From IMG/VR virus record IMGVR_UViG_3300011008_000022: a DNA stretch of 64,000 nucleotides. One strand, 5' to 3'. Each line of letters starts with the position of its first letter. Within the stretch, counting starts at the first letter, position 1. Position numbers and translations under genes: made by a program. A model generated the notes under the pieces. The model searched no databases. It saw only the letters and a program-made list of their open reading frames with translations, and was not told where the DNA came from. Positions 12,402-61,141 of this stretch are shown piece by piece. This DNA is from a virus.

Positions 12402-12728
12402 ATGACCTCAAAATTAGACCTTAATCGTGCTTTTAGTGAGCACGGAGTTACTTCTAAGACCGTTGCAGAGCGCATCGGACTGACACCACAGACCATCAGC
12501 GCTTATGTCAACGGCAACCCCACCGTCAAGAGCCTCTATCAGATAGCAGATGCACTTGAATGTGATGTGCGCGACCTGTTCTATCCCGTCGAGGATGCCA
12601 CAGAGGAAACCACCACTCCCGATGCCTCTCCATCGGGCACAAACGGCCCTCGTGCCTCTGCTCTGATTACATGTCCGCATTGCGGCACAGTCCTCTCAGC
12701 ATCCCTTTCGGTCTTCAACAAATCATAA
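12402..12728 (+). CDS. XRE/Cro-CI family HTH transcriptional regulator
   Basis: KTVAERIGLTPQTISAYVNG helix-turn-helix; C-terminal CPHCG; in-frame hairpin 12610-12640 (TTTPDASPSGT). Confidence 0.8.
   Translation: MTSKLDLNRAFSEHGVTSKTVAERIGLTPQTISAYVNGNPTVKSLYQIADALECDVRDLFYPVEDATEETTTPDASPSGTNGPRASALITCPHCGTVLSASLSVFNKS
12610..12640 (+). repeat. family-A hairpin, in frame in the XRE regulator gene
   Basis: ccaccactCCCGATGcctctcCATCGGGcac. Confidence 0.85.
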
Positions 12729-12745
12729 ATTCATAAATTCATCAA
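12722..12745 (+). repeat. TTCATMA heptamer array before a start codon
   Basis: atcataaattcataaattcatcaa, ATG at 12749. Confidence 0.75.
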
Positions 12746-12748
12746 ACA

Positions 12749-13276
12749 ATGAAAAAGCAATTATTTTCTTCCCTCCTGTTTTGTTTGGTGTGTTGCTGTG
12801 TTGCAGCAACTTTCCCCCAGTCTGCTAACGCTCAGGTGGAGTTCTCGAAGTTCAAACTCAGTAAGGATGAGCCTTTCGGTGCTTTCCCTGGACGTAAGAT
12901 GCTCAATACCAAATTCAAGGTGACTGCCGACCGCGACCTGAAATATATCCTCGTGGACTATTACATCGTCAATGCCGTTGGCGATGTTATCTCCGGCTAC
13001 ACACAGGCCATCAAGAATGATACCCTGGAGTTCATCAAACCCAAACGCATGGAATGTACTGGTCCATACAACGCAGGCAAGTCCTACTCCCCTTGGGTCA
13101 GCGGTGTAATCACCTACCCTAACAAAGACATCACCGCCTTCCCGTTCCAAATACAAGTCATGTATATGGGCACCGATGATTGGGTCACAATCCCTATCAC
13201 CAAAGATAACCTCACCACCTATTTTCCCTCCCTCAAATGGATTGAATATAGTCGAAAGAATAAGAAAATCCTATAA
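12749..13276 (+). CDS. secreted hypothetical protein (moron candidate)
   Basis: Signal peptide MKKQLFSSLLFCLVCCCVAATFPQSANA; followed by its own terminator at 13285-13313. Confidence 0.75.
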   Translation: MKKQLFSSLLFCLVCCCVAATFPQSANAQVEFSKFKLSKDEPFGAFPGRKMLNTKFKVTADRDLKYILVDYYIVNAVGDVISGYTQAIKNDTLEFIKPKRMECTGPYNAGKSYSPWVSGVITYPNKDITAFPFQIQVMYMGTDDWVTIPITKDNLTTYFPSLKWIEYSRKNKKIL

Positions 13277-13284
13277 TTATTACT

Positions 13285-13313
13285 CCCCGCCGATTTCGGT
13301 GGGGTTTCTTTTT
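13285..13313 (+). terminator. intrinsic terminator (family-A-like stem plus T-run)
   Basis: CCCCGCCGAttTCGGTGGGGtttcttttt. Confidence 0.8.
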
Positions 13314-13341
13314 GCGATGGCATCGCTACAACAATAACAAC

Positions 13342-14475
13342 ATGAATTACAAATCATATCTACCATTGAGCATGGCACTCGCCATGCTTTTCTCTTGCGA
13401 GAAACCTATATTGAATGAAGAGGATGCCAACGACACCCCCAAAACCATCACCTTTCAACTATTCTCCCCTGCACAGACACGTTCCACGAGATCAGCAGCA
13501 GCTATCACCGACTTCAAGAAAATCTATATCTATGACAGTAAAGGTGGCTATCAAGAGCAGCTGCTGGAGCAGTCTGCAGATGACCCCGATTTCGGCTCAC
13601 CAACCATCACCCTCACGGGTGGCCATCACCAACTGACCTTCGCCGCCATCGATAATGCGGATGCCTACCTCGATGGTAGCGTACTCAGACAGGAAACTAT
13701 GGGCGACACGTTCCTGAAAACCATCGACATCAACACTCAGAATGCACCCGCCAACCAGCGCATCGTGCTCAAACGTGTGGTAGCCGGCATCCTCTATAAG
13801 GGAGAGGGCACCGTGACACTCAGCGGACTGCGCAACGGTCTCTCGCTGTCCTCCGCGAAACCCGCTAAGGCAACAACCACAAAGACACTCTCAACGGGAC
13901 AACAGCTCTATACCCTTGTGCCCGATGACGAGACGGTGGTCATGGATGGTAAACGTAACATCCATATCCTCCAGAATGCCTTTACCGTCATCTACGACAA
14001 CGACGGCACACATACCGACCCAGAAGACCCTACCAACGGCGAATATCTCCTGACAGAAAATGATACCGCACAGATCTATGTCGCACGGATGGAACTTACC
14101 GACATCACACTGGAGAATACACCCGACCCGCAAGCCGCCTATGCAGCACAGATGTACCCCAATCGTATGCCTACCCGACGCGAAGCATACGGCTTCGTCA
14201 AAAAGGAACTGCCGGAAGACTTCTGGACGGGTGCCCGATGCCTCGCCTACGACCGACCCGAAGACAAAGGCTTCCTCGGTGCTACTGGTTGGGGCAGTGG
14301 CGACTACTACACCTTCACATGGGGACCTAACGGCACCTCCAACAAAGCAGGCACCAAAACCGCCTACTCTATCAAACCTATCCGCGTAGTCCCCATAGTC
14401 CCAATCTCCCAGTCCTTCACCCTCGACGGCGACTTCACCTGGTCCACTGACACCACCACCGTCGTCAAATTCTGA
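13342..14475 (+). CDS. lipoprotein, possible fimbrillin-like N-terminus and DUF1566-like C-terminus
   Basis: ATG 13342 (track start 13312 is a TTG inside a hairpin); lipobox AMLFS-C; C-terminal WGSGDYYTF...YSIKPIRVV resembles DUF1566-type endings; own terminator 14687-14714. Confidence 0.7.
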   Translation: MNYKSYLPLSMALAMLFSCEKPILNEEDANDTPKTITFQLFSPAQTRSTRSAAAITDFKKIYIYDSKGGYQEQLLEQSADDPDFGSPTITLTGGHHQLTFAAIDNADAYLDGSVLRQETMGDTFLKTIDINTQNAPANQRIVLKRVVAGILYKGEGTVTLSGLRNGLSLSSAKPAKATTTKTLSTGQQLYTLVPDDETVVMDGKRNIHILQNAFTVIYDNDGTHTDPEDPTNGEYLLTENDTAQIYVARMELTDITLENTPDPQAAYAAQMYPNRMPTRREAYGFVKKELPEDFWTGARCLAYDRPEDKGFLGATGWGSGDYYTFTWGPNGTSNKAGTKTAYSIKPIRVVPIVPISQSFTLDGDFTWSTDTTTVVKF

Positions 14476-14496
14476 CTCCGAGATCTACGACACTCA

Positions 14497-14612
14497 CTAC
14501 AACGTAGTCCCAGCGCTCCAAGTAGCATCTGACCTCTACAACGTAGTATCAGTGCTTCAAAGAGTAATCTGAACTCCTACAACGTAGTAAATAGCGTCGT
14601 AACGTAGTAAAA
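14497..14612 (+). repeat. three tandem ~40-bp units starting CTACAACGTAGT, plus a half unit
   Basis: ctacaacgtagt at 14499, 14537 and 14578; cgtaacgtagt at 14599. Confidence 0.8.
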
Positions 14613-14686
14613 TCAAATTTTAATCTAAAATTTTTAGAAACATTTAGTAAACAACATTAAGTTTAACCCAGCGATGCCACCGCAGC

Positions 14687-14714
14687 CCCACCGAACTCAT
14701 CGGTGGGGTTTTTG
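14687..14714 (+). terminator. intrinsic terminator (family-A-like stem plus T-run)
   Basis: CCCCACCGAactcaTCGGTGGGGttttt. Confidence 0.8.
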
Positions 14715-14745
14715 TTTCGTCATTTGCAAGGCGATTGTATCGCCC
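14715..14745 (+). repeat. family-C motif
   Basis: gtttcgtcatttgcaaGGCGATtgtATCGCC directly after terminator 14687-14714. Confidence 0.85.
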
Positions 14746-14761
14746 TAATCTCCGCCCTGCC

Positions 14762-14908
14762 GCACAAAACATCCGCCATGTCGCACAAAACACCCGCCAT
14801 GTCGCACAAAACACCCGCTCAGTCGAACGAAGTACCCGCTCCATCGAACGAAGTACCCGCTCCATCGAACGAAGTACCCGCCATGTCGAACGAAATCACC
14901 GATCTATA
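14762..14908 (+). repeat. seven tandem 21-bp repeats in two subfamilies
   Basis: 3 x cgcacaaaacacccgccatgt-like, then 4 x cgaacgaagtacccgctccat-like, head to tail without spacers. Confidence 0.9.
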
Positions 14909-15012
14909 CCTTTCTACACCGCATTTCTACACCTTTCTATACCTCTCTATACCATTTTCCTCTAACTACATACAACACTTTTCTCTAACTCCATCATTTT
15001 TCCTCTAACTGT
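14905..15012 (+). repeat. short phased repeats (about 10-11 nt TA(C/T)ACCTTTC x5, then TTTTCCTCTAAC x3)
   Basis: ctatacctttc tacaccgcatttc tacacctttc tatacctctc tataccatttt; ttttcctctaac at about 14956, 14981 and 15000. Confidence 0.75.
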
Positions 15013-15019
15013 TCGCCCA

Positions 15020-15115
15020 GGTTGGTACAAACCTTAGTACAACACAGTACAAACCTCTGATTAGGTTAGTACAAACCTTAGTATAACAAAATACTAACCC
15101 CGCTCAGGTTAGTAT
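15020..15115. repeat. palindromic 16-mers AGGTTnGTACAAACCT (x2) plus hairpin TACTAACC/GGTTAGTA
   Basis: aggttggtacaaacct 15020-15035; aggttagtacaaacct 15064-15079; tactaaccccgctcaggttagta 15093-15115. Confidence 0.8.
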
Positions 15116-15121
15116 TTTCTA

Positions 15122-15156
15122 TTCATAAATCCATTATTTCATCAATTCATAATTCA
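15122..15156 (+). repeat. TTCATMA array, orphan (only a 5-codon ORF follows)
   Basis: attcataaatccattatttcatcaattcataattc. Confidence 0.65.
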
Positions 15157-15339
15157 ATGGGATATACAAAATAATTCTTTTATCTTCTAAAAATGAATTA
15201 TTTTGCACACCCCAAAGTTAGTGTGCAGTGCGTGTCAAAAATTGCCACCGATTTGAGGGGTGCGGTGGTAGAGTGCTGCCCAAAATCGCTTGTAACTTAT
15301 TGAAAATCAGAGTAACCACCTCGAAAAAACAGTCCCATT

Positions 15340-15650
15340 CTCGCCCTCGACCGCCGCCTCACTGGATGGGCACCCCCTCCCCCTTCCCCCTGAATTGCTG
15401 CAAATATGCCGCCGGCCCTCCTGGATGGGTGCCTGATGCCCTCGAAGAGGTGCCGAGGGTGTCCGGCTGGCTCAGATCATCACCCAGAACGCCGCCCAGG
15501 GTGCCTCTCTGCTGCCCGTCATCGGTGGCCGGTGGTGGTGCTCTGCTGACATCCTGAAGAGGTGCCCGCGCTGCTGGTGGTGCTCTGCCGGTGCTCATGG
15601 ATGCCAGAACCGCCGCCCAGGGTGCCGAGGTGGTGCCGGTGGTGGTGTGT
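15340..15650. repeat. GC-rich non-coding block with internal direct repeats and about 7 RGGTGCC motifs
   Basis: gaagaggtgcc x2 (15445, 15557); ccgcccagggtgcc x2 (15492, 15611); ggtggtgctctgc x2 (15535, 15578); ctggatggg x2 (15362, 15422); flanked by AT-rich DNA. Confidence 0.7.
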
Positions 15651-15740
15651 GCTTTTATATATATAATAAGGTAAAACAAAGTATAATTTGTTTATAAGTG
15701 TTAAAAATTCGATTAAATACGAATTTATTTTGTTTTTTGT

Positions 15741-15772
15741 TTGGTGGTATCAAATTTTATTTTTACCTTTGC
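15741..15772 (+). promoter_or_regulatory. -33 TTTG / -7 TACCTTTG promoter
   Basis: tttgg...(20 nt)...tacctttg upstream of the 15826 gene. Confidence 0.6.
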
Positions 15773-15825
15773 AGCAGATTTAAAAAGTTATTCACCGCGC
15801 CACCGGCGCACAAAATTAAAAAATT

Positions 15826-16176: not shown

Positions 16177-16223
16177 AGCCTGGTTTCTCTCCTCATGTTA
16201 TAACCGTTTAATATTATTATATT

Positions 16224-16430: not shown

Positions 16431-16434
16431 AACT

Positions 16435-16770: not shown

Positions 16771-16822
16771 CCCCTATTTATAGTCCGTTTTATTATTCAC
16801 AGATTTTTAAAATTTTCCGATT

Positions 16823-19270: not shown

Positions 19271-19522
19271 ATGGTTACAATTTCACAGAATGCCATCGCC
19301 ACCGTTAAACAGCTTAACGACCAACTTTTTGAAGCTGAGTGTGAACTGGAAGCCCAGCAGCGGGCAGTCTCTAAGTATCGCTATTATCTGGCAGCAGAAG
19401 CCAATCAGGAAACAGTCATGGATCTACGTGGTGCCATAAAGAACCTGCAGGGCTGTCAGCAGCGCGTCGATCATCTGCGCCAGCGTCTCACCGACACCCT
19501 CGAAAATATCTGGTCATTATAG
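19271..19522 (+). CDS. hypothetical protein (83 aa)
   Basis: Helical/coiled-coil-like sequence; ATG in A-rich context. Confidence 0.6.
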   Translation: MVTISQNAIATVKQLNDQLFEAECELEAQQRAVSKYRYYLAAEANQETVMDLRGAIKNLQGCQQRVDHLRQRLTDTLENIWSL

Positions 19523-19542
19523 ACCATCTCAAAAATCCCCGT

Positions 19543-19574
19543 TTTCATCATTTCATCGTTTCATCAATTCATTA
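19543..19574 (+). repeat. TTCATMA array before ATG 19579
   Basis: tttcatcatttcatcgtttcatcaattcatta. Confidence 0.8.
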
Positions 19575-19578
19575 AATT

Positions 19579-19827
19579 ATGGTCATCATCAACGGTCACA
19601 AGTTCTACGAGGTCCCTACCTCTTGCGGCACCTGTCCTTTCCTCCTCACTGGTAACACCTCCACCCCTGGCGTATCTACCGGCTACAGCAAAGGTCTGTG
19701 CGTCCAGTGGAACGAAACCCACCACACCTGGGCCAACATTCCCCGCCGCTGTTCTAAGCTCTTCCGCCGTGCTTTTGACCTCTACAATGACACCGGCGAG
19801 AATTTAGTTATCACTAAAAAAGAGTAA
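19579..19827 (+). CDS. hypothetical Cys-containing protein (82 aa)
   Basis: Start preceded by TTCATCA array 19543-19574. Confidence 0.6.
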   Translation: MVIINGHKFYEVPTSCGTCPFLLTGNTSTPGVSTGYSKGLCVQWNETHHTWANIPRRCSKLFRRAFDLYNDTGENLVITKKE

Positions 19828-19872
19828 AAAACCAACAAATTTCGATTTTATTTTAATTTTCCTGCAAAATTA

Positions 19873-19904
19873 TTTGGCAGTATCAAAATATATTCGTATC
19901 TTTG
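19873..19904 (+). promoter_or_regulatory. early promoter cassette copy 1 (-33 TTTG, -7 TATCTTTG)
   Basis: atatttggcagtatcaaaatatattcgtatctttgcacc. Confidence 0.7.
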
Positions 19905-19923
19905 CACCGACAAATAAAAGTTT

Positions 19924-20826: not shown

Positions 20827-20858
20827 TTTCATTCATTCATCAATTCATCAAATCATTA
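20827..20858 (+). repeat. TTCATMA array
   Basis: tttcattcattcatcaattcatcaaatcatta. Confidence 0.8.
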
Positions 20859-20880
20859 ACCGAGCTTTCAGGCTCACGAA
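20858..20880 (+). promoter_or_regulatory. conserved 5' leader hairpin (L2)
   Basis: aaccGAGCtttcagGCTCacgaaaa. Confidence 0.7.
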
Positions 20881-20893: not shown

Positions 20894-21139
20894 ATGGATA
20901 TCAAAATCAAGAAAATTGTTTCCTGGATTTTCCCTTATTTCGGGAACGACCACATCATGCCCTATGGCTCTCTTCTCGTTACTGACGGAAAGACTGAGCG
21001 CGTATGCCATACCAAGGGCGACCGCTATCACGATAACGATGGCTATCAGTACATCACCTTCAATCGTCGCCGTTATGAAGTTCTCGCCTCTGGCAATCCA
21101 GCACGAGGCATGAAAATCTCTCTGCGCCCTGTTGCTTAA
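20894..21139 (+). CDS. hypothetical protein (81 aa)
   Basis: ATG 20894 (MDIKIKK) downstream of leader hairpin 20858-20880; the longer track ORF from 20618 overlaps the previous gene. Confidence 0.6.
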   Translation: MDIKIKKIVSWIFPYFGNDHIMPYGSLLVTDGKTERVCHTKGDRYHDNDGYQYITFNRRRYEVLASGNPARGMKISLRPVA

Positions 21140-21170
21140 TTCATCATTTCATCAATTCATCAATTCATCA
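21139..21170 (+). repeat. TTCATMA array before ATG 21175
   Basis: aattcatcatttcatcaattcatcaattcatca. Confidence 0.8.
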
Positions 21171-21174
21171 TATT

Positions 21175-21291
21175 ATGGCAAAGAATTATAAAGTCGAGAA
21201 TGGCAAGCATTTGAAAGCCATTAGAAGCCCTTATGATGGCCGTGTAGTCGGCTGGATAGATATAACTGAAAGTTCAACGAAAAACTCATAA
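21175..21291 (+). CDS. small hypothetical protein (38 aa)
   Basis: MAKNYKVENGKHLKAIRSPYDGRVVGWIDITESSTKNS; below the ORF-track cutoff; start preceded by TTCATCA array as for neighbouring genes. Confidence 0.4.
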   Translation: MAKNYKVENGKHLKAIRSPYDGRVVGWIDITESSTKNS

Positions 21292-21303
21292 ATTCGTCAA
21301 GTT

Positions 21304-21570
21304 ATGAAAGCAATGGAATCCTATCATTCTGGTACTGTCGGCTTCGATATTCTACACACAGATGTTGTCGAGGTAGAACGTCGTACAATTACGATTAAAA
21401 CCTATAATGGTAATATCACCAGACCAGGCAACAGAGTCATGCGCTGCCGTCACTGTGGAAATGAATGGGTGGAGTCTATCACAAGCCCCCAGGTTCTTTC
21501 TCAGGATGTGCTAAACGAACTCCATGAGTATTTCAGCGATTATACAGAATGTAAACAGAAAAAAGCATAA
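21304..21570 (+). CDS. hypothetical protein (88 aa)
   Basis: Contains CRHCG; ATG in A-rich context. Confidence 0.6.
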   Translation: MKAMESYHSGTVGFDILHTDVVEVERRTITIKTYNGNITRPGNRVMRCRHCGNEWVESITSPQVLSQDVLNELHEYFSDYTECKQKKA

Positions 21571-23167: not shown

Positions 23168-23212
23168 AAAACAAAAAAAAATCACTAAAAATCAAAATTT
23201 TATCGAAAAATA

Positions 23213-23244
23213 TTTGGTAATATCAAATTATATTCGTATCTTTG
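23213..23244 (+). promoter_or_regulatory. early promoter cassette copy 2
   Basis: atatttggtaatatcaaattatattcgtatctttgcacc. Confidence 0.7.
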
Positions 23245-23263
23245 CACCGACAAATAAAAGTTT

Positions 23264-23300: not shown

Positions 23301-23735
23301 ATGACAATCCAAGAATTTAAGAACGAAGCCGCCCGCCGAGGTCACACCTTCGACAATAGCGACAATGCCTCTCGTGCATGGTCTCGCTCATGGGGCCTTA
23401 CCTGGTGGCGCAATGTATGGTTCTATCGTGAGTACCGTCTGGGTGCTTTCACCTATCGTACTGGTCGCGTCCGCCATCGCCATCACTCTTACACTAACAC
23501 CGAGTATCGTATTAACGACTCTGAGGTTTCACAACGTGAGTTCCTAAAGGCTCTCGACACCTTTCAGGCTCCCGCCCTCTCTGCCGATGAGCAGTCCTAC
23601 ATCCAGCAGCAAGAGCAGCTTGCGCGTCAGGCTGCAGCCCGTCGTGCTGCATGGCACCGCTCCCACCCTTCACGCTCTCGCCGTCAGACCTCTTCCGATC
23701 ATGCCGTGCAACTCACATTCAATTTCGCTGCATGA
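23301..23735 (+). CDS. hypothetical early protein (144 aa)
   Basis: ATG 23301 downstream of promoter cassette (-7 box 23237-23244) and leader hairpin 23264-23286; the track start 23130 would span the promoter. Confidence 0.65.
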   Translation: MTIQEFKNEAARRGHTFDNSDNASRAWSRSWGLTWWRNVWFYREYRLGAFTYRTGRVRHRHHSYTNTEYRINDSEVSQREFLKALDTFQAPALSADEQSYIQQQEQLARQAAARRAAWHRSHPSRSRRQTSSDHAVQLTFNFAA

Positions 23736-23766
23736 TTTCATCAATTCATAAATTCATCTATTCACC
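23736..23766 (+). repeat. TTCATMA array
   Basis: tttcatcaattcataaattcatctattcacc. Confidence 0.8.
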
Positions 23767-23792
23767 GTTTCACTAAAAAACACTAAACAATT

Positions 23793-24359
23793 ATGGATAA
23801 ATTTAATTTTGGAGTTATCAGACCATATATGGTCGAAGAACAGCGCATGATAAATCGTTATGCTAACGAGAATGAGGGCACTCTGCCCATGCTGCATTCA
23901 CCTCATATCAAGTTGGGTCACTATGACACTCAGACTATCGCCTCTGTTGCTATGCGTGGTCTTACCCTGAATGGCTGGACGTGTAAGCAAACCTATAAGT
24001 GGTGGCAGGACTATCGCCGCCACCATTCTGCCCTCTATCCTGGCTCATGCTCTTCTGAGGTCTCTTGTGGTCCTAAGATTTTCGAGCGCGTATGGAACAC
24101 GCTGGCTGAATGGCTGCCATATCATCTGCCTAAGATTACCAACAGCCGGTGGTACTATATGAACATCACCGACTGGGACGGACGCAGACGCAAGTGGTAT
24201 TTCGACCGCCCAGACGATGCCACCGCCGTGCATTATTTCTTGCACCATAAAAAATCAGATCACGATATCAACGAATATCATTCCCTTTATTCTGTCACCT
24301 GGGACGGTCAGAATTTCGTCAACCCGAAACGCCTTTCAGTCTCACACAAAGCTGCATAA
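23793..24359 (+). CDS. hypothetical protein (188 aa)
   Basis: Preceded by TTCATCA array and a conserved leader TTCACCGTTTCACTAAAAAACA..CAATTATG. Confidence 0.7.
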   Translation: MDKFNFGVIRPYMVEEQRMINRYANENEGTLPMLHSPHIKLGHYDTQTIASVAMRGLTLNGWTCKQTYKWWQDYRRHHSALYPGSCSSEVSCGPKIFERVWNTLAEWLPYHLPKITNSRWYYMNITDWDGRRRKWYFDRPDDATAVHYFLHHKKSDHDINEYHSLYSVTWDGQNFVNPKRLSVSHKAA

Positions 24360-24395
24360 ATTCATTCATTCATTATTTCATCAATTCATCAATTC
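24358..24395 (+). repeat. TTCATMA array running into ATG 24396
   Basis: aaattcattcattcattatttcatcaattcatcaattc. Confidence 0.8.
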
Positions 24396-24740
24396 ATGTC
24401 ACACTATCTCTACACATTCACCCTCTCCACAGCCACCGGCGACCATGGCCACCAGTACCCGCTACTCACCGCCAACGAATACCCCTGGATGAACGTCCAG
24501 ATTATCCCCACACCCGACTCTCAGCGCTCCCTCATTCTCGAAGCGCTCAACAAGCGGGGTGGGGGAGTGGCCACCGTCTCAGGGCGCACCGACTTCGTGG
24601 CTATCCAGGCCGGTGGCGGTTCCGAAGAGCACCCCACCATCCCTATCACCCGCCAGAACTACCAACATGTCGCCGCCATTCTCCGCGACTGCCTCCAAGC
24701 AGCTGCCGACCACTGGGCCGCTACTCACCCCGTCGAGTAG
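24396..24740 (+). CDS. hypothetical protein (114 aa)
   Basis: ATG embedded in the last unit of TTCATCA array 24358-24395. Confidence 0.6.
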   Translation: MSHYLYTFTLSTATGDHGHQYPLLTANEYPWMNVQIIPTPDSQRSLILEALNKRGGGVATVSGRTDFVAIQAGGGSEEHPTIPITRQNYQHVAAILRDCLQAAADHWAATHPVE

Positions 24741-24801: not shown

Positions 24802-24845
24802 AAAACAAAAAAATTAGCCAAAAATCAAATTTTTCTCGAAAAATA

Positions 24846-24877
24846 TTTGGCAGTATCAAAATATATTCGTATCTTTG
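24846..24877 (+). promoter_or_regulatory. early promoter cassette copy 3
   Basis: atatttggcagtatcaaaatatattcgtatctttgcagc. Confidence 0.7.
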
Positions 24878-24903
24878 CAGCGTAAAACAATAAATAATAT
24901 GTT

Positions 24904-25356: not shown

Positions 25357-25398
25357 TCATTCATCAATTCATACATTCATAAAATCATCAATTCATTA
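25356..25398 (+). repeat. TTCATMA array
   Basis: atcattcatcaattcatacattcataaaatcatcaattcatta. Confidence 0.8.
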
Positions 25399-25417
25399 AA
25401 TATAGGAGAAACAAATT

Positions 25418-27468: not shown

Positions 27469-27496
27469 GTTCCGCATGTGGCTATGTTATAGCCAT
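27469..27496 (+). repeat. family-B hairpin, stem variant
   Basis: gttccgcatgTGGCTATgttATAGCCAt. Confidence 0.75.
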
Positions 27497-27511
27497 CCTC
27501 CCAAATCACAA

Positions 27512-27540
27512 ATTTCATCAATTCATCAAATCATCATTCA
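27512..27540 (+). repeat. TTCATMA array before ATG 27541
   Basis: atttcatcaattcatcaaatcatcattca. Confidence 0.8.
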
Positions 27541-28359
27541 ATGGAAAATCAATTCAACACCGTTCAGCCCAACCCCATCTGGGATGGCGAACTTTCACAG
27601 TATAGTCAGCACTTCATGTCGGGTATGCAGTTCCACGCACCCTTCATCGTCACCAAGTATCAGCAGCGTTCCGACCTCGGCGACTGCATCATCAGCACCC
27701 GTCCGCCTTATCTCGTTTGCAAGATCCACGGCTTCAAGACAGCAGCTGCTGCCGGACGCACCGACAATCCCAAGCTGGTGGCCATGGCCGAACGTGAGGA
27801 ACAGGCTCGTGTCGAATACCTCCAGCAGCGCCAGCAGGCGTTCCGCAATCGTATTGAAGCCGACCGTCATGGCATCACCATCCGCCAGCTCATTGAACAG
27901 CAGGGACGTGTCTATGACGAAGAACTCGATGAGCCGCGCATCGTCTGCAAGGTGCCTGGTCTTAATGTCTATCTCGAACTCGTAGGCTGCCTCCAGCCGC
28001 TTTCTGATGAAGACCCCGAATGGCTCGGCGACAATGGCATCCTCGCCACGCTCGACTCCATGATGCAGTGGGCACCAAACATCTACGACCGCGCCGATCG
28101 CCGTGCTCGTGCCTCTCAGTTCTCCGACATTCAGCCCCTCGACTCCTGGATTGACCCCTACAATCCTGACCTCCGCCCCTGGATGCCTCGCAAACGTGGC
28201 CTCGGTCATACTTTCATCGACCCCAGCCGCCGCCCTGATCTGCTTTACTCCAAGGCACCGCAAGGCGCTGCCGACTATGGCATGATACGCACCATCAAGG
28301 AGGCCACCGCCCACAATGCCGCCCAGGGCATAGCCCCCGAAGACTATGGCCACCGTTAG
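27541..28359 (+). CDS. hypothetical protein (272 aa)
   Basis: Preceded by TTCATCA array 27512-27540. Confidence 0.7.
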   Translation: MENQFNTVQPNPIWDGELSQYSQHFMSGMQFHAPFIVTKYQQRSDLGDCIISTRPPYLVCKIHGFKTAAAAGRTDNPKLVAMAEREEQARVEYLQQRQQAFRNRIEADRHGITIRQLIEQQGRVYDEELDEPRIVCKVPGLNVYLELVGCLQPLSDEDPEWLGDNGILATLDSMMQWAPNIYDRADRRARASQFSDIQPLDSWIDPYNPDLRPWMPRKRGLGHTFIDPSRRPDLLYSKAPQGAADYGMIRTIKEATAHNAAQGIAPEDYGHR

Positions 28360-28398
28360 CCCCTATATGTCGTTATAGCGCACCTCAAAAATCACAAA

Positions 28399-28449
28399 AT
28401 TTCATCATTTCATCAATTCATACATTCATATATTCATAAATTCATAAAA
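28399..28449 (+). repeat. TTCATMA array (longest, about 6 units) upstream of the parA promoter
   Basis: atttcatcatttcatcaattcatacattcatatattcataaattcataaaa. Confidence 0.8.
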
Positions 28450-28464
28450 TAAACATCATTTTAT

Positions 28465-28495
28465 TTTGTAAAATCAAAATTTATTTTTATCTTTG
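28465..28495 (+). promoter_or_regulatory. parA promoter (-33 TTTG, 19 nt spacer, -7 TATCTTTG)
   Basis: ttttgtaaaatcaaaatttatttttatctttgcacc. Confidence 0.65.
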
Positions 28496-28521
28496 CACCA
28501 AAATTATCAAATTATATCATT

Positions 28522-29385
28522 ATGGCACGTATTAAAGAAATCCTGGCATTCGCCAACAATAAGGGTGGGGTAGCCAAAACCACCACCGTCCAGAACGTCG
28601 CTGCCGGTCTTCTCCGGCGCAACAGTCGTCTGCGCATCCTCTGCATCGATCTCGACCCGCAGGGCAATCTTTCTTCCCTCCTCGGCTGGCGCGATAAGAT
28701 GAAGGAGTACCACGCTAAGAACCTCGCCACTCTCACCGTGGCCGATGCCCTCCGCGATGGCGACAACAACCACCTGCCTGTCTATCAGTCTCGCAAGGGT
28801 CTCTACTATGTCCCCGCCTCTGCCGGACTGTCCGACATCGACCCTGACCTCCATCGTCAGATGCAGTCCAAGCTGGTGCTTTCGTCACTCTTTGGCAATG
28901 ACATCTTCGACATGGACCACCTCTACCTCGGTGCAAAGGCACTCGATGGCGAATACATTGAAGACACCTTCGACTATGTGCTCATCGACTGTGCTCCTGC
29001 CCTCTCCGAACTAACCTTCAACGCGCTCGCTGCCGCCTCTGGTGTCATCATCCCCGTGCAGCTCGGCTCGCTTTCAGTCGATGGCATTGGCCGCATGGTC
29101 GAAGCCTACAAGAATGTCAAGCGCAAACTCAATGCCGACCTCGACATGCGGGGCTTGCTCATTGTCATGGCCGACGAGCGCACCCGACTGGCTCGTGAGA
29201 CTACCGACTACCTCCGCGACCAGTACGACACCACTATCTTTAAGACGCGCATCCGCCAGTGTGTTAAGGTGGGCGAAAGCCAGTTCCAGCATGAGGACAT
29301 CTTCACCTATGCCCCCGAATGCACCGCCTCTCACGACTACCGCGACTTCGTTTCCGAACTCATCAAAACCCAAAATCCTGAATAA
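28522..29385 (+). CDS. parA: ParA/Soj-family partition ATPase
   Basis: Deviant Walker A NNKGGVAKTTT near the N-terminus; DCAP Walker B-like region; own promoter (-33 at 28465-28468, -7 at 28488-28495). Confidence 0.85.
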   Translation: MARIKEILAFANNKGGVAKTTTVQNVAAGLLRRNSRLRILCIDLDPQGNLSSLLGWRDKMKEYHAKNLATLTVADALRDGDNNHLPVYQSRKGLYYVPASAGLSDIDPDLHRQMQSKLVLSSLFGNDIFDMDHLYLGAKALDGEYIEDTFDYVLIDCAPALSELTFNALAAASGVIIPVQLGSLSVDGIGRMVEAYKNVKRKLNADLDMRGLLIVMADERTRLARETTDYLRDQYDTTIFKTRIRQCVKVGESQFQHEDIFTYAPECTASHDYRDFVSELIKTQNPE

Positions 29386-29387
29386 TT

Positions 29388-29732
29388 ATGGCTGTCAAAT
29401 CATTCAAAAAGACTTCCAAAAAGTCCATCGTTGCCGGTTCCCCCGCTATTGAGGAACACGAGCAGATCATGTCCTCCGTCCGTGCTGAGTCTGCCGAACC
29501 TGCTCCAAGCGGTTCTCCCGCTGCCCCCGCTTCCGCTGCGTCAGCATCAGGCACCACCATCGGTGTCTTCTCCACGCTCAACACCGAACCGCTGAAGAAC
29601 GTCCAGACGCGCGTACCGCTCTCTATCTATGAGAAACTGAACCGCATGAAGTATTTTGCCGGACAGCGCACCTCTATCGGCGACATTGTGGCACAGGCCA
29701 TTCAGGAGTATTGCGACCGGCATCCCGTCTGA
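29388..29732 (+). CDS. ParG-like ribbon-helix-helix centromere-binding protein (candidate)
   Basis: Starts 3 nt after parA; disordered N-terminus; C-terminal TRVPLSIYEKLNRMKYFAGQRTSIGDIVAQAIQEY fits a strand-helix-helix pattern. Confidence 0.55.
   Translation: MAVKSFKKTSKKSIVAGSPAIEEHEQIMSSVRAESAEPAPSGSPAAPASAASASGTTIGVFSTLNTEPLKNVQTRVPLSIYEKLNRMKYFAGQRTSIGDIVAQAIQEYCDRHPV
29508..29522 (+). repeat. short family-A-like hairpin, in frame in the ParG-like gene
   Basis: AGCGGttctcCCGCT (peptide PSGSPAA). Confidence 0.55.
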
Positions 29733-30191: not shown

Positions 30192-31661
30192 ATGGCAAAG
30201 AAAACTGATAAGATGCAGCAGCTCATCAAGTCTGACAATAGCATCATCCGCGAACTCCGCGACCAGAAGTGGATCTACAATCCAAAAGTCTATGCTCAGG
30301 TGGCAGGCGACTTCTCCCTCATGCACCAGCGCGTCCTCATGGGTGTACTCGAAAAGTTGCAGGACCGCATCGCCTATTCTGCTTCCGAACATCAAAAGAA
30401 CCAGCAACTCTGGCTGCCGCTTTTCGCACCAGAGGAAATGAATACCTCCGTTGACTTCGAGATCGAGGCTCGTGACCTGGGTGTCACTCCTGGCCACTAT
30501 CCCGAACTGGCTCAGGCACTCGGCGACCTCGTAAGCATGAAGATAGGCTATCCGAAGAAAAAGGGCAATAAGACCGTCTATGTCTTCGCCTCGCTCTTCT
30601 CTCGCATTGAAATGCCTACCTCCGATAATGGCTGGCGCACCGGCAAAATCCGTGTCAAGATGGATAAGGAGAATGTCAACGACTTCCTCTCTATGGATCG
30701 TGGTTATACCGACCATATCGCCCGCATAGCCCAGTTCTCAAAGAAACAGCGCACACCGCGCATCTATATCTATCTCTCCACCTTCAAGTACAAAGGACGT
30801 AACGAGGTGGAGTACCCCGAACTCTGCGAATTTCTCGGCATCGACGATGCTACCTACGTCGCTACTCATAAGGCCGAGAAACCCGATGTCAAACCTACCG
30901 ACAATCCCTTCCACAAGTTCTCAAAGGTCAAGAAACTCATCCTCGACCCCTCTAAGGCCGAAATGGATGCTTTCTCTGCTGACCGCAAAATCGACTTCTC
31001 TTTCACCTACGAACCGCTCTATAAGGATGGACGCAAAAAGGGCAATCCTACCCATATCGAGTTTGTCATTGTCCCTGGTGCCCTCGGCATCGAACGCGAA
31101 CAGGAACGCAAGCGCCACAACCAGATACAGGCGCTCATCAATGCCCTCACCCGTCAGTGGTCCGACCTCCATGCCTACGACCTCCTCGAAGTCGCTAAGG
31201 ATGTTGCTGATGATTGGCTCGACGACTTCTGCAACTATGCCTATGATGATGTGCGCCGCCAGGTGGAGAAAACACAGCCCGACCATGTAGCCGAATACGT
31301 CCTCACCCTCCTGCAGACGTGGGTCAAGAATAAGACCAACGAGGCTCGCCGTTTGGAGGTAGAGCGCAAACGTCAGTACGACATCTTCGTCCAGCAGCAG
31401 GCAGAAAGCCGGTGGCGTTCGCTGATGCAGGAACTCGGCGCACAGACCCCTCTCCGTGCCCGTCAGATCAACATCGAGCGCTATGACGAAGAAACTCACA
31501 CCCTCACCATCGCCCTCGCCGGCAAGGATATCTACGACCAGATAGAACCTATCACCGACGACCAGGGCAACACCATCACCAAAGGCATCTATCAGGATAT
31601 CTGGTTTTCTCTTGTGCGCAAATACTTTCCCCGCTCCATAGTCCAGTACCGCATGTCCTGA
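30192..31661 (+). CDS. iteron-type plasmid replication initiator (Rep_3/RepB-like)
   Basis: N-terminal IKSDNSIIREL...DFSLMHQRVLMGVLEKL resembles initiator Rep N-termini; seven upstream iterons with the last abutting the ATG; inverted iterons on both sides. Confidence 0.7.
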   Translation: MAKKTDKMQQLIKSDNSIIRELRDQKWIYNPKVYAQVAGDFSLMHQRVLMGVLEKLQDRIAYSASEHQKNQQLWLPLFAPEEMNTSVDFEIEARDLGVTPGHYPELAQALGDLVSMKIGYPKKKGNKTVYVFASLFSRIEMPTSDNGWRTGKIRVKMDKENVNDFLSMDRGYTDHIARIAQFSKKQRTPRIYIYLSTFKYKGRNEVEYPELCEFLGIDDATYVATHKAEKPDVKPTDNPFHKFSKVKKLILDPSKAEMDAFSADRKIDFSFTYEPLYKDGRKKGNPTHIEFVIVPGALGIEREQERKRHNQIQALINALTRQWSDLHAYDLLEVAKDVADDWLDDFCNYAYDDVRRQVEKTQPDHVAEYVLTLLQTWVKNKTNEARRLEVERKRQYDIFVQQQAESRWRSLMQELGAQTPLRARQINIERYDEETHTLTIALAGKDIYDQIEPITDDQGNTITKGIYQDIWFSLVRKYFPRSIVQYRMS

Positions 31662-34605: not shown

Positions 34606-34998
34606 TTATTTAACTTCAGTAAATATGGTATGACGTTCCACGAAATATGCCTCACACCTAATCAATTTACCCTTTTTATCCCGCTCGTGGTTACGGTATC
34701 TTATATCCGTGCCGTCGAGGAACAGCTGACAGTTACGCTTCGACGACATAAACAGTCGCCATTCCGCTTCCAGATACACCCACTCTTCACCCTTGGGCTT
34801 AGAGTCAGTCATCAGTCGCTCCATCAACTTCTGCCCCATGTCACGGGCACCCTGGTAGTAGGAGGCATACATGGCCAGTCGTTGCACACTGATTTTTACC
34901 TCGTGCTCAACGGCAAACAGCTTCGCCCGTTCATCCTGCCGACGCTCTAAAATCTGCCTCGCCTGCTCAATGATTTTGTCCTCTTGCTTCGTATTCAT
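34606..34998 (-). CDS. hypothetical protein (130 aa)
   Basis: Start preceded on the minus strand by a TTCATCA-type array (34999-35020). Confidence 0.7.
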   Translation of the reverse strand: MNTKQEDKIIEQARQILERRQDERAKLFAVEHEVKISVQRLAMYASYYQGARDMGQKLMERLMTDSKPKGEEWVYLEAEWRLFMSSKRNCQLFLDGTDIRYRNHERDKKGKLIRCEAYFVERHTIFTEVK

Positions 34999-35020
34999 AA
35001 ATTTATGAATTGATGATTTG
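34999..35020 (-). repeat. TTCATMA array on the minus strand before ATG 34998
   Basis: Minus strand caaatcatcaattcataaatttATG; orientation follows the gene. Confidence 0.7.
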
Positions 35021-35857
35021 TTAGAAAAATAAGTCTATCATTTTCTGGCTCATGTAGTAGGGAGGCTTATGCTTGTGCGCCTTGTTATATTCACGAGCCT
35101 TTGCTATATGCTCCTTAGTATGTTCGCTATCCACAATCCAGAAGTCATCATGCGACTTCCATGCGATAGAGTATTCAATGTTTCCATCTTTATCCAGGAC
35201 ATAGACGGAAATATCTCTGTAAGTGCGACATTCACGCCCAGTAATATGACCATAGAGCGTAGCATAGTCACCTTCCACGATACACGTTTGCCCAGTCTCT
35301 TTGTGACGTATCAGATAACCAGGCATAAAGCGCACGAAGTTCGCATTATACTCCAGCATCTTATTGATGGCCGGAATAAAGTATTGCTCCCATTGCTCAT
35401 CGGTATATACATGCTTCTCTATATACAGTCGTGCATCATCCAACATCTGCTCAGAACTCTTGATGTCGTTGCCGTCGTGAGTCATTTCGTAAGTAAGATA
35501 TTCCACCTCGTCGCCACCCATGGCCATGCGGTTCTGCATCGCACAGATGTTTCCGTGCCACAACTCCATTGTGCGCTCAAACATTTCCACCGTCTCAGGA
35601 TTGATTGGTCTCGCTTTCAACTGTTCAAGTGTTATGGTGTTCTTTTCCTGGGATTTCTCCTTTTTCTTCTCCATCAGTTCCTGTGCTAAACCGATGATAT
35701 AATTACACGTCCCCGTCAGCTCTTCTAAATTCTCAAAATGGAATTTAATACTGTTAGGCTCTCGCATGTTGATGCACTTCAACTCCATAAAGAAGCTGTC
35801 ACCAGTCGCTTCACTCACGGTGCAACAAATCTCCGCTCTTTTAAATACCTTTTCCAT
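35021..35857 (-). CDS. hypothetical protein (278 aa)
   Basis: Long ORF tightly packed in the minus-strand operon. Confidence 0.7.
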   Translation of the reverse strand: MEKVFKRAEICCTVSEATGDSFFMELKCINMREPNSIKFHFENLEELTGTCNYIIGLAQELMEKKKEKSQEKNTITLEQLKARPINPETVEMFERTMELWHGNICAMQNRMAMGGDEVEYLTYEMTHDGNDIKSSEQMLDDARLYIEKHVYTDEQWEQYFIPAINKMLEYNANFVRFMPGYLIRHKETGQTCIVEGDYATLYGHITGRECRTYRDISVYVLDKDGNIEYSIAWKSHDDFWIVDSEHTKEHIAKAREYNKAHKHKPPYYMSQKMIDLFF

Positions 35858-44621: not shown

Positions 44622-44762
44622 AACTAATTATTTATATATATTTAACAATAAAGGTTGTATATCGCATAGTTTCCACCTTATATTATCTTTAATTATTAAA
44701 CGCCAAAATCTGACATTAAATTTTATCTAAATGTTAAATTTCCAACAAAAACTAATATAATC

Positions 44763-44794
44763 TTTGATTTTTCAAATTAAAATTCGTATCTTTG
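44763..44794 (+). promoter_or_regulatory. -33 TTTG / -7 TATCTTTG promoter facing the CI-like repressor gene
   Basis: tctttgatttttcaaattaaaattcgtatctttgcac. Confidence 0.65.
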
Positions 44795-44827
44795 CACAAA
44801 ATTACAAAAATATTTTTATATATCAAC

Positions 44828-54622: not shown

Positions 54623-54627
54623 ATTCT

Positions 54628-54729: not shown

Positions 54730-54744
54730 TGCAAAATAAGAACA

Positions 54745-55269: not shown

Positions 55270-55281
55270 TATCTACCAATT

Positions 55282-61071: not shown

Positions 61072-61101
61072 TCACCGTGCCCAGCAGTTTTCGGCTGGGT
61101 T
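61072..61101 (+). repeat. family-A hairpin, abuts the tape-measure stop codon
   Basis: tcaccgtgCCCAGCAGttttCGGCTGGGtt. Confidence 0.85.
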
Positions 61102-61102
61102 C

Positions 61103-61141
61103 TCATAAATTCATAAATTCATTAAATTATCAATTCATCAA
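61103..61141 (+). repeat. TTCATMA array before the ACP gene
   Basis: ctcataaattcataaattcattaaattatcaattcatca. Confidence 0.8.

What the first reader, a model, noticed from the sequence alone, without database searches (positions are those of the whole stretch)
12722..61141. Tandem TTCATCA/TTCATAA heptamer arrays immediately upstream of at least 11 start codons
Twelve arrays of 2-6 units (TTCATCA, TTCATAA, TTCATTA) were found. Most end 0-15 nt before an ATG, and at 24396 the ATG is part of the last unit. The one array in the minus-strand block (34999-35020) is inverted together with its gene. This family therefore follows gene orientation, unlike hairpin families A-C. That points to an RNA or initiation-level role. 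Bacteroidota mRNAs largely lack Shine-Dalgarno pairing and rely on unstructured A/U-rich leaders, so a repeated C-containing heptamer is not explained by composition alone. It could be a translational enhancer, a binding array for a phage RNA- or DNA-binding protein, or an alternative early-promoter element. One array (15122-15156) is orphan, and the longest (28399-28449) precedes the parA promoter rather than a start codon.
Basis: seen in the sequence. Interest (0 to 1): 0.6.

Follow-up and report, generated by a model that had tools for sequence, protein, structure and literature searches.

The report
Octamer repeat arrays between phage genes
A ~100-kb phage (probably a phage-plasmid) of rumen Prevotella-type bacteria fills many gaps between its genes with 3-8 tandem copies of the 8-base unit TTCATHAA; these gaps are the Shine-Dalgarno-free ribosome start regions of the next gene and, most likely, also the binding arrays of the phage's own ParG/omega-like partition and regulator protein.

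Summary
The arrays are real and far beyond chance, but the unit is an octamer (TTCATHAA, period 8), not a heptamer. The window holds 13 arrays. Six related ~100-kb phage genomes hold 8-14 each, against 0 in reversed or shuffled controls and none beyond chance in 301 host-family genomes.

The arrays are intercistronic linkers. They run from the upstream stop codon to the next ATG and are co-oriented with it (58 vs 6). They are phase-locked: 46 of 62 have the ATG in the same register, TTCAT-N6-ATG. This phase puts A at -3, -12 and -13, and the arrays have almost no G, no AUG and little structure, which matches known Bacteroidota start-site rules. First cistrons behind the host-type promoters lack arrays.

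The same octad also forms the longest arrays at the parA promoter. In relatives these contain inverted units, and a lineage with a different ribbon sequence has CACGAAAN octads instead. The gene after parA encodes a small protein with a basic tail and a ribbon-helix-helix-like domain.

Best reading (about 0.5): ParG/omega-type binding arrays embedded in start regions.

The parts
12714..12745 (+). Octad array, 4 units. The upstream ORF stops inside it (TAA at 12726-12728). ATG at 12749, 3 nt after the last unit.
15122..15153 (+). Orphan octad array, 4 units, followed only by a 5-codon ORF. It directly adjoins the iteron-like repeats at 14492-15114 (a non-start-region array).
19544..19575 (+). 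Octad array, 4 units, then ATT ATG (gene 19579-19827). Homology to relative G001 ends at 19578.
20828..20859 (+). Octad array, 4 units, preceded by a GC hairpin. ATG 34 nt downstream.
21132..21171 (+). Octad array, 5 units. The upstream stop is in the first unit. Followed by ATT ATG of a conserved 38-codon ORF.
21285..21308 (+). Short degenerate array, 3 units. It holds the stop of the 38-codon ORF and precedes gene 21304-21570.
23729..23776 (+). Octad array, 6 units. The upstream stop is in the first unit. ATG 16 nt downstream (23793).
24353..24400 (+). Octad array, 6 units. The upstream stop is in the first unit. The ATG at 24396 is positions 4-6 of the last unit.
25360..25399 (+). Octad array, 5 units, starting 4 nt after the upstream stop. 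ATG 18 nt downstream (25418).
27514..27537 (+). Octad array, 3 units, then TCA ATG (gene 27541-28359). Preceded by a TTATAG hairpin and a CCCAAATCACAAAT flank.
28401..28448 (+). Longest array, 6 direct units, ending about 15 nt upstream of the -33 TTTG of the parA promoter. Proposed centromere/operator.
28465..28495 (+). Host-type (Bacteroidota) promoter of parA: TTTG ... TATCTTTG. One of 7 copies of a conserved promoter module.
28522..29385 (+). parA: small Walker-type partition ATPase (287 aa) with no N-terminal DNA-binding domain.
29388..29732 (+). Candidate octad-binding protein (114 aa). It has a basic N-terminal tail, a low-complexity linker and a C-terminal strand-helix-helix domain with an invariant KNVQTR strand (ParG/omega-like ribbon-helix-helix).
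30192..31661 (+). Possible plasmid-type replication initiator (weak Rep3_C hit, also seen as a faint hit in relatives' orthologues).
34994..35025 (-). Octad array on the minus strand, 4 units. The ATG of gene 34998-34606 is inside the last unit.
61102..61141 (+). Octad array, 5 units, after a GC hairpin, then ATT ATG of the acyl-carrier-protein gene (61145-61408).

Best explanation
The arrays are tandem 8-bp boxes (TTCAT core plus a 3-nt A/T-rich spacer) under two constraints at once.

(1) Shown: most arrays are the whole gap between two co-directional cistrons, so as RNA they are the translation-initiation region of the downstream gene. Orientation, register and spacer letters fit Bacteroidota Shine-Dalgarno-independent initiation. 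There is A at -3, -4, -5, -12 and -13, almost no G, no upstream AUG and little structure.

(2) Inferred: the invariant TTCAT core and the need for 3 or more contiguous units reflect cooperative binding to double-stranded DNA by a phage protein. The likely protein is the small ribbon-helix-helix-like protein encoded just after parA, with one dimer per box as in ParG, omega and MetJ. The arrays at the parA promoter and beside the iteron region would be the centromere/operator of a type Ib-like partition system. The 8-12 further arrays, clustered within about 18 kb upstream of parA, would be extra binding sites. They would enlarge the partition complex and/or let the partition protein damp expression of accessory operons, as omega or KorB do.

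Only the G-free, AUG-free orientation is tolerated inside start regions, which would explain why those arrays are all direct and co-oriented.
For: Unit and numbers:
- Period 8. Over 338 units the composition is T.90 T.97 C.95 A.99 T.96 H A.82 A.78.
- Between orthologous arrays, substitutions fall on position 6 (9 of 17).
- 8-14 arrays per genome against 0 in controls.
- Single units are not tied to ATGs.
- Arrays have 3-6 units, rarely up to 11.

Start-region role:
- 61 of 62 arrays have a co-directional upstream ORF, and in 33 of 62 its stop lies within -3..+8 of the array start.
- 46 of 62 share the register d mod 8 = 3. TTCAT peaks at -11, -19, -27 and -35.
- This register puts A at the positions that raise initiation in Flavobacterium johnsoniae (-3, -6, -12, -13, with AUG depleted; PMC6847099).
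- Mean folding energy is -3.8 kcal/mol for array start regions against -8.3 for other genes.

DNA-binding role:
- Every lineage has octads at parA, but in different layouts. There are 6 direct units upstream of the promoter, units abutting the ATG, 1 direct + 4 inverted, 3 direct + 3-4 inverted, and 11 mixed units downstream of the promoter.
- Mixed or orphan arrays lie beside iteron-like repeats.
- G is more frequent at position 6 outside start regions (0.125 against 0.054).
- A distant syntenic relative whose ribbon reads KGISVK has CACGAAAN octads at parA and no TTCAT arrays in 12 kb. A relative with INVQTR keeps TTCAT arrays.

Protein:
- The KNVQTR strand is invariant.
- AF2 gives an extended segment plus two helices, pLDDT 82.
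- About 24 of 28 Foldseek hits are ribbon-helix-helix proteins (Arc, NikR, ParD, HicB, CdbA and others).
- There are weak Pfam hits to RHH_1, ParG, DUF6290, Antitox_RHH and 56B_RHH.
- ParA is a small Soj/delta/ParF-like ATPase.

Precedent: ParG binds ACTC boxes spaced by 4-bp AT-rich spacers, direct or inverted, one dimer per box (PMC3130281). Omega binds 7-10 contiguous 7-bp repeats at six sites overlapping three promoters (PMC9499535).

Not a host signal: 5 matches against 7 control matches in 301 host-family genomes.

Clustering: 61 of 83 arrays lie within 18 kb upstream of parA.
Against:
- The ribbon-helix-helix assignment is statistically weak. Foldseek E-values are all 1.3 or higher, the best PDB sequence hit has E = 0.46, and the Pfam hits are below cut-off.
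- The phase lock is sharper than the start-region profile of non-array genes predicts. That profile favours d = 3 only mildly, and only for TTCATAAA. DNA binding gives no reason for it.
- Most arrays have no promoter within 100 nt, so a DNA-bound repressor there has no obvious target.
- Relative L328 has a changed ribbon (KNVGAK) but still TTCAT/ATGAA-type boxes, so covariation rests on one lineage.
- Another conserved small phage protein could be the binder.
Confidence: 0.5

Rival explanations
1. The arrays act only at the RNA level. They would be translational enhancers or standby sites for Shine-Dalgarno-less ribosomes, or binding arrays for an RNA-binding regulator (a RegA-like phage translational repressor or activator). 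The parA-proximal arrays would be derived copies.
For: - Strict co-orientation (58 vs 6).
- Nucleotide-exact phase lock (46 of 62).
- G and AUG avoidance.
- Low structure.
- Exact stop-to-ATG placement at internal cistrons while promoter-proximal cistrons lack arrays.
- Published analogue: TAACTGA direct repeats ending 1 nt before start codons (PMC4679880).
- In two lineages the parA array itself abuts the ATG.
Against: - It does not explain inverted or mixed octads at parA and beside iteron regions in four lineages.
- It does not explain the switch to CACGAAAN octads with a different ribbon.
- Host genomes do not use the unit.
- Single units at -11 are not enriched.
- There is no 16S complement.
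- No RNA-binding domain was found in the ORFs scanned.
Confidence: 0.25
2. There is no trans-acting factor. The arrays would be recombination linkers at gene boundaries (like PeSL cassettes of T4-type phages). They would spread with newly acquired ORFan genes and stay uniform through slippage and gene conversion.
For: - Many array-preceded genes are genome-specific ORFans, and arrays are gained and lost on orthologues.
- Homology breakpoints between relatives are 3.3-fold enriched at arrays (17 of 127 against 4.7 expected).
- Unit number varies between orthologous arrays.
- PeSL precedent: PMC2839356 and PMC4122927.
Against: - Homogenisation alone would not keep 7 of 8 positions while leaving position 6 free across lineages with 50-75% protein identity.
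- It would not produce inverted boxes at parA.
- Breakpoints are expected at any gene boundary of a mosaic phage, and no control against array-free boundaries was run.
Confidence: 0.12
3. The arrays are transcription- or RNA-processing signals: a phage-specific promoter, a Rho loading (rut-like) site, or an RNase cleavage site that separates cistrons.
For: - The arrays are C-containing, G-poor, unstructured and have periodic YC dinucleotides, as in rut sites.
- Several arrays follow a hairpin and a conserved CTCAAAAATCAC flank.
Against: - Arrays end 3 nt before the ATG and contain no TAnnTTTG box, and seven host-type promoter modules already drive the operons.
- No phage RNA polymerase or sigma factor was found in the ORFs scanned.
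- Rho and RNases do not need a conserved 7-of-8 unit.
Confidence: 0.08

Closest known systems
TP228 ParF-ParG with the parH centromere and OF operator (type Ib partition)
   Same: - Small Walker ParA followed by a small protein with a flexible basic N-tail and a C-terminal ribbon-helix-helix-like domain.
- Upstream arrays of short boxes with an 8-bp period (4-bp box + 4-bp AT-rich spacer), direct or inverted.
- One box alone is insufficient for binding (PMC3130281).
   Different: - The box is TTCAT, not ACTC, and there is no detectable sequence homology to ParG above thresholds.
- Arrays are not confined to the par locus: 8-14 are dispersed, mostly inside intercistronic start regions and phase-locked to ATGs.
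- The host is Bacteroidota and the replicon is a ~100-kb phage.
pSM19035 delta-omega, with 7-bp WATCACW repeat arrays serving as both parS and operators
   Same: - Several arrays (six parS sites) of contiguous short non-palindromic repeats, in direct or inverted order.
- The arrays are bound by a ribbon-helix-helix protein that is both centromere binder and global repressor.
- Four or more contiguous units are needed for full activity (PMC9499535).
   Different: - Period 7 there against 8 here.
- Omega sites overlap promoters, whereas most arrays here lie between cistrons with no promoter nearby.
- There are more arrays per genome here.
TAACTGA heptamer direct repeats of Beggiatoaceae, Cyanobacteria and some Bacteroidetes (MacGregor 2015)
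   Same: - Two to six tandem units, forward-oriented, ending within a few nt of start codons.
- They replace a Shine-Dalgarno site.
- The function is unknown and translational regulation was proposed (PMC4679880).
   Different: - Different unit and period (7 there, 8 here).
- Those repeats are chromosomal and number in the hundreds, whereas these are phage-only.
- No link to a partition locus or to inverted copies was reported.
Bacteroidota Shine-Dalgarno-independent start regions (Kozak-like A at -3, -6, -12, -13; AUG depletion)
   Same: The array register supplies A at these positions, lacks AUG and is unstructured. The phage's non-array genes show the same A-rich -14..-11 and A-3 profile.
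   Different: Host start regions are not repetitive and do not carry TTCAT. The conserved core is not explained by these rules.
MetJ operators (tandem 8-bp metboxes)
   Same: Two to five tandem 8-bp boxes, each bound by one ribbon-helix-helix dimer with cooperative contacts (my own knowledge, not tested here).
   Different: Metboxes are palindromic (AGACGTCT) and lie at promoters of a metabolic regulon. There is no partition role.
PeSL mobile regulatory cassettes of T4-type phages
   Same: Short conserved intergenic motifs that flank variable ORFan genes and coincide with insertion, deletion or replacement junctions (PMC2839356, PMC4122927).
   Different: PeSLs are an early promoter plus a stem-loop. 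These arrays are neither, and they are tandem octads.

Membership tests
Type Ib-like partition cassette (ParA + ribbon-helix-helix centromere binder + repeat centromere) | Small Walker-type ParA without an N-terminal DNA-binding domain | tested here: met
   287 aa. PHROG ParA-like hit at 2.4e-49. PDB hits to Soj at 1e-33, and also to delta and ParF.
Type Ib-like partition cassette (ParA + ribbon-helix-helix centromere binder + repeat centromere) | Small centromere-binding protein with a ribbon-helix-helix fold encoded directly after parA | tested here: inconclusive
   A 114-aa gene starts 3 nt after parA. AF2 shows an extended segment plus two helices, pLDDT 82. About 24 of 28 Foldseek hits are ribbon-helix-helix proteins, but all have E >= 1.3. 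Pfam hits to RHH_1, ParG, DUF6290 and Antitox_RHH are below cut-off. The best PDB sequence hit is the ribbon-helix-helix protein ORF56 of pRN1 at E = 0.46. A G-x-T turn motif is present.
Type Ib-like partition cassette (ParA + ribbon-helix-helix centromere binder + repeat centromere) | Flexible basic N-terminal tail on the binder (the ParA-stimulating peptide) | tested here: met
   The N-terminus is conserved (KSFKK..KKSIVAGSPAIQEHE), pLDDT is 50-59, and a low-complexity linker follows. Its function was not tested.
Type Ib-like partition cassette (ParA + ribbon-helix-helix centromere binder + repeat centromere) | Array of short repeats, direct and/or inverted, next to the par promoter | tested here: met
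   Present in all lineages examined, with a changing layout. A different box (CACGAAAN) occurs in the lineage with a different ribbon.
Type Ib-like partition cassette (ParA + ribbon-helix-helix centromere binder + repeat centromere) | The protein binds the repeats, and the cassette stabilises a plasmid | not testable with these tools
   Needs EMSA or footprinting and a plasmid-stability assay.
Bacteroidota Shine-Dalgarno-independent translation-initiation region | A at -3, -6, -12 and -13; A-rich -14..-11 | tested here: met
   The register TTCATHAA-RTT-ATG gives A at -3, -4, -5, -12 and -13, and H at -6 and -14. Rule taken from PMC6847099.
Bacteroidota Shine-Dalgarno-independent translation-initiation region | Low secondary structure and no nearby AUG | tested here: met
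   Folding energy -3.8 against -8.3 kcal/mol, p = 2e-10. G at position 6 is 5% in non-terminal units.
Bacteroidota Shine-Dalgarno-independent translation-initiation region | Raises translation of the downstream gene | not testable with these tools
   Needs reporter fusions or ribosome profiling.
TAACTGA-type heptamer repeats (MacGregor 2015) | Unit TAACTGA, period 7 | tested here: not met
   The unit is TTCATHAA with period 8.
TAACTGA-type heptamer repeats (MacGregor 2015) | Forward-oriented direct repeats ending a few nt before start codons | tested here: met
Shine-Dalgarno-like pairing element | Complementarity to an accessible 16S rRNA segment | tested here: not met
   Three 16S genes of the host-type family end in ...ACCUCCUUU. 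Only 6-mers or shorter (AAUGAA at nt 3, GAUGAA at nt 28) complement the unit, about as expected by chance.

The most novel reading that the evidence does not exclude
The arrays are a phage-private translation-initiation code. Each unit (UUC-AUH-AA) mimics the real start site (RUU-AUG-RA) with a near-cognate AUH codon in the same register. A run of decoy starts would then recruit Shine-Dalgarno-independent 30S subunits, or a phage factor that binds the RNA, and funnel them to the one AUG. This would give internal cistrons of phage accessory operons privileged or switchable translation. The partition protein would have secondarily adopted the same abundant, host-absent sequence as its centromere.
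Probability: 0.12. Interest if true: 0.85.

Novelty: new variant of a known kind. Interest (0 to 1): 0.6.

Why it matters
If the small protein after parA binds these octads, this would be a partition system of an uncultured Bacteroidota phage-plasmid family whose centromere/operator boxes are spread over a dozen intercistronic start regions. That would link plasmid-state maintenance to control of accessory (ORFan, probably host-interaction) genes.

It also gives a natural, compact and portable Shine-Dalgarno-free intercistronic linker for Prevotella/Bacteroides. Tools for polycistronic expression in these organisms are scarce.

It is a second, independent case of tandem short repeats phase-locked to start codons, after the TAACTGA repeats, whose function has stayed open since 2015. 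Unlike that case, it comes with a concrete candidate binding protein that can be tested.

Tried and rejected
- Heptamer model: 0 matches.
- Chance or composition: 0 arrays in reversed or shuffled genomes.
- Host signal: no enrichment in 5 rumen MAGs or in 301 genomes of the family of a Prevotella MAG.
- Wide distribution: scans of the viral and genome collections with TTCAT-N3 x4 returned mostly unrelated homogeneous microsatellites (TTCATTCC, TTCATTTA and others). Heterogeneous TTCATHAA arrays came only from this phage family.
- 16S pairing: negative.
- Single TTCAT as a Shine-Dalgarno substitute: not enriched at -11 outside arrays. An apparent ATG peak at +6 was a pattern artefact.
- Arrays as host promoters: no TAnnTTTG box in or just upstream of them.
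- Known RNA families: none in the window.
- Near-identical phage records: none in the GenBank phage collection.
- Full-length AF2 model against the PDB: no hits. Full-length profile against PDB sequences: nothing relevant.
- Several distant homologues sat on contigs too short to show context.
Full report
**Observation.** A heptamer pattern (TTCATHA twice) has no match in the window. Read in register, the window holds 13 arrays of 3-6 units with consensus TTCATCAA/TTCATAAA. Twelve are on the + strand between 12714 and 61141, and one is on the - strand at 35025-34994.
- the ATG at 24396 is inside the last unit;
- the minus-strand array is inverted with its gene;
- array 15122 has only a 5-codon ORF behind it;
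- the longest array (28401-28448) lies upstream of the parA promoter.

**What the DNA is.** The window is part of a ~100-kb phage.
- A record sharing 84-98% identity (G001, 101,861 bp) is colinear and circularly permuted relative to the window.
- Recognisable genes include a tape-measure protein, an NAD-dependent ligase, methyltransferases, a sliding-clamp-like protein, ParA and an acyl carrier protein. Most others are ORFans.
- Canonical Bacteroidota promoters (TTTG ... TAnnTTTG) are present. Seven copies of one conserved promoter module lie at 12365, 15764, 19897, 23237, 24870, 28488 and 44787.
- Upstream of 739 predicted starts in seven genomes, the sequence is A-rich at -14..-11, has A at -3 and is G-poor. 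This is the profile described for Flavobacterium johnsoniae (PMC6847099).
- Earlier notes of this scan call the host Prevotella-type.

**Significance and spread.**
- ParA relatives in IMG/VR gave 19 contigs (74-100% identity), and every one carries such arrays.
- In the window and six whole genomes there are 8-14 arrays each, 83 in all. There are none in the reversed sequences or in shuffles.
- Scans of the viral and genome collections for four TTCAT cores at 8-nt spacing returned mainly unrelated homogeneous microsatellites. The heterogeneous TTCATHAA type came only from this family.
- Five rumen Prevotellaceae/Bacteroidaceae MAGs gave 5 matches against 3 control matches.
- 301 genomes of the family of a Prevotella MAG gave 5 matches against 7 control matches.
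- The arrays are therefore a phage feature, not a host signal.

**Anatomy.**
- Over 338 units the composition is T .90, T .97, C .95, A .99, T .96, then position 6 with A, C and T about one third each and G 6%, then A .82 and A .78.
- Between orthologous arrays of close genomes, 9 of 17 substitutions fall on position 6.
- Arrays have 3 (27 arrays), 4 (29), 5 (12) or 6 (11) units, and rarely more.
- With an independent ORF set, the gene leaving the array is co-oriented in 58 cases and anti-oriented in 6, p = 9e-12.
- Of 62 arrays with an ORF start within 34 nt, 32 have the ATG exactly 3 nt after the last unit and 7 have it at positions 4-6 of the last unit. Seven more are offset by whole units, so 46 of 62 share one register. 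TTCAT peaks at -11, -19, -27 and -35.
- 61 of 62 arrays have a co-directional ORF ending just upstream. In 33 of them the stop lies within -3..+8 of the array start.
- The first cistron behind each promoter module has no array, and few arrays have a promoter box within 100 nt upstream (5 of 83).
- The typical array is therefore the complete linker between two cistrons of an operon: stop, (TTCATHAA)n, RTT, ATG.

**Start-region reading.**
- In this register A falls at -3, -4, -5, -12 and -13, and H falls at -6 and -14. Adenines at -3, -6, -12 and -13 are the positive determinants in F. johnsoniae, and AUG is depleted near starts in Bacteroidetes.
- 'Not G' at position 6 is exactly what avoids ATG.
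- Array start regions fold much less than others: -3.8 against -8.3 kcal/mol for -40..+30, p = 2e-10.
- So the arrays are start regions by position, and they fit the rules.
- Those rules do not explain a 7-of-8 conserved unit. A profile from 664 non-array genes favours the observed register only mildly. Single units are not used at -11. Three 16S genes of the host-type family offer no complement beyond 6-mers and have a normal CCUCC 3' end.

**DNA-binding reading.** All lineages have octads at parA, but the layout changes:
- six direct units upstream of the promoter (window, G001, G002);
- units abutting the parA ATG (G003, G004);
- one direct plus four inverted units (L030);
- three direct plus three or four inverted units (L032, L033);
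- eleven mixed units downstream of the promoter (L034).

Non-start-region arrays also lie beside iteron-like repeats. These are the window's orphan array next to the 21- and 44-bp repeats at 14492-15114, and a mixed array in G005. Units outside start regions tolerate G at position 6 (0.125 against 0.054). Orientation-free short boxes with a fixed 8-bp period next to a par promoter are the known signature of ribbon-helix-helix centromere binders. ParG binds ACTC boxes with 4-bp AT-rich spacers, direct or inverted, one dimer per box (PMC3130281). Omega binds 7-10 contiguous 7-bp repeats at six sites that overlap three promoters (PMC9499535).

**Candidate protein.** The gene starting 3 nt after parA encodes 114 residues. 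It has a conserved basic N-terminus, a low-complexity linker, and a C-terminal KNVQTR(V/I)P segment followed by two helices with a G-x-T turn.
- The family is small: 34 hits among 1.84 billion representative proteins.
- AF2 on the C-terminal 50 residues gives pLDDT 82 with an extended segment and two helices.
- About 24 of its 28 Foldseek hits are ribbon-helix-helix proteins (Arc, NikR, ParD, HicB, KacA, CdbA, AtaR, Reg576), all with non-significant E-values.
- Pfam gives scattered sub-threshold hits to RHH_1, ParG, DUF6290, Antitox_RHH and 56B_RHH.
- The best PDB sequence hit is the ribbon-helix-helix protein ORF56 of pRN1 at E = 0.46.
- ParA is a small Soj/delta/ParF-type ATPase. The next large ORF has a weak Rep3_C hit, seen also in relatives. 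This suggests a plasmid-maintenance module.

**Distant syntenic relatives** (ligase, parA, small protein, Rep3-like):
- one with ribbon INVQTR keeps TTCAT arrays at parA and at start regions;
- one with ribbon KGISVK has four to five CACGAAAN octads (same 8-bp period) between promoter and parA, and no TTCAT arrays in 12 kb;
- one with ribbon KNVGAK still has mixed TTCAT/ATGAA boxes in a 450-bp AT-rich region.

Covariation is therefore suggestive but rests on one lineage.

**Synthesis.** I read the arrays as boxes under two constraints.
- The core and the need for contiguous units come from a phage DNA-binding protein, most likely the ParG/omega-like protein.
- The orientation, register and HAA spacer come from lying inside start regions of a Shine-Dalgarno-less host.
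- 61 of 83 arrays lie within 18 kb upstream of parA. This would fit an enlarged partition complex or an omega/KorB-like regulon of accessory operons.
- What is shown: the anatomy, the statistics, the family-wide conservation, the absence from host genomes and the fit to start-site rules.
- What is inferred: the binder, the binding, and any effect on partition or expression.

**Dynamics.**
- Many array-preceded genes are genome-specific ORFans.
- Orthologues gain and lose arrays. The acyl-carrier-protein gene has one in four genomes and none in two.
- Homology breakpoints between relatives are 3.3-fold enriched at arrays (examples at 19578, 24380 and 27539).
- This resembles PeSL cassettes of T4-type phages and may explain how arrays spread. 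I did not control against array-free gene boundaries.

**Limits.** The host is inferred. Gene calls are simple ORF calls. Four earlier follow-up reports overlapping this stretch were withheld, and the notes I could see did not mention these arrays.

Noticed in passing
window 12333-12376, 15732-15775, 19865-19908, 23205-23248, 24838-24881, 28456-28499, 44755-44798: Seven copies of one conserved host-type promoter module (..TTTGGnAnTATCAAAATATATTCG TATCTTTG CACC..) head the operons of the accessory region. It looks like a repeated, possibly mobile, promoter cassette. In the window's lineage a copy lies between the array and parA, whereas in G003/G004 the array abuts parA directly.
   Followed up: partly
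window 14492-15114: An ORF-free stretch with 39-, 21/42- and 44-bp tandem repeats (for example CCGCCATGTCGCACAAAACAC x6 and GGTTAGTACAAACCTTAGTACAAC). It looks like an iteron-type replication origin. The orphan octad array adjoins it.
   Followed up: partly
window 30192-31661: A 489-aa ORF after the par genes has a weak Rep3_C (initiator WH2) hit, repeated as faint hits in orthologues of distant relatives. Together with parA this suggests a phage-plasmid lifestyle.
   Followed up: partly
window 19510-19543, 27478-27513, 28366-28400; also G001, G002, G005: About 9-12 of 83 arrays, including the parA-proximal ones, are preceded by a short hairpin with a TTATAG loop and a conserved flank CCTCAAAAATCAC(AAA). 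This is a composite 5' flank of unknown role.
   Followed up: partly
window 21175-21291: A 38-codon ORF (MAKNYKVENGKHLKAIRSPYDGRVVGWIDITESSTKNS) is flanked by arrays on both sides. It is conserved with its array in G001, G002 and other relatives. It may be a small conserved protein worth testing as an alternative array binder.
   Followed up: no
L328 1-545 (distant relative): A ~450-bp AT-rich region upstream of parA holds two kinds of 8-bp-period boxes: mixed TTCAT/ATGAA units and GATAT units. It may be an unusually long centromere-like region.
   Followed up: no
L036-L153 (genome-contig scan): Many Bacteroidales, Saprospiraceae and other genomes carry unrelated homogeneous octamer microsatellites starting with TTCAT (TTCATTCC, TTCATCTT, TTCATTGG), some tens of units long.
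   Followed up: no
window 12749-13276: The gene behind array 12714 starts with a signal-peptide/lipoprotein-like sequence (MKKQLFSSLLFCLVCCCVAATF...). It diverges from G001 right after the first ~10 codons.
   Followed up: no
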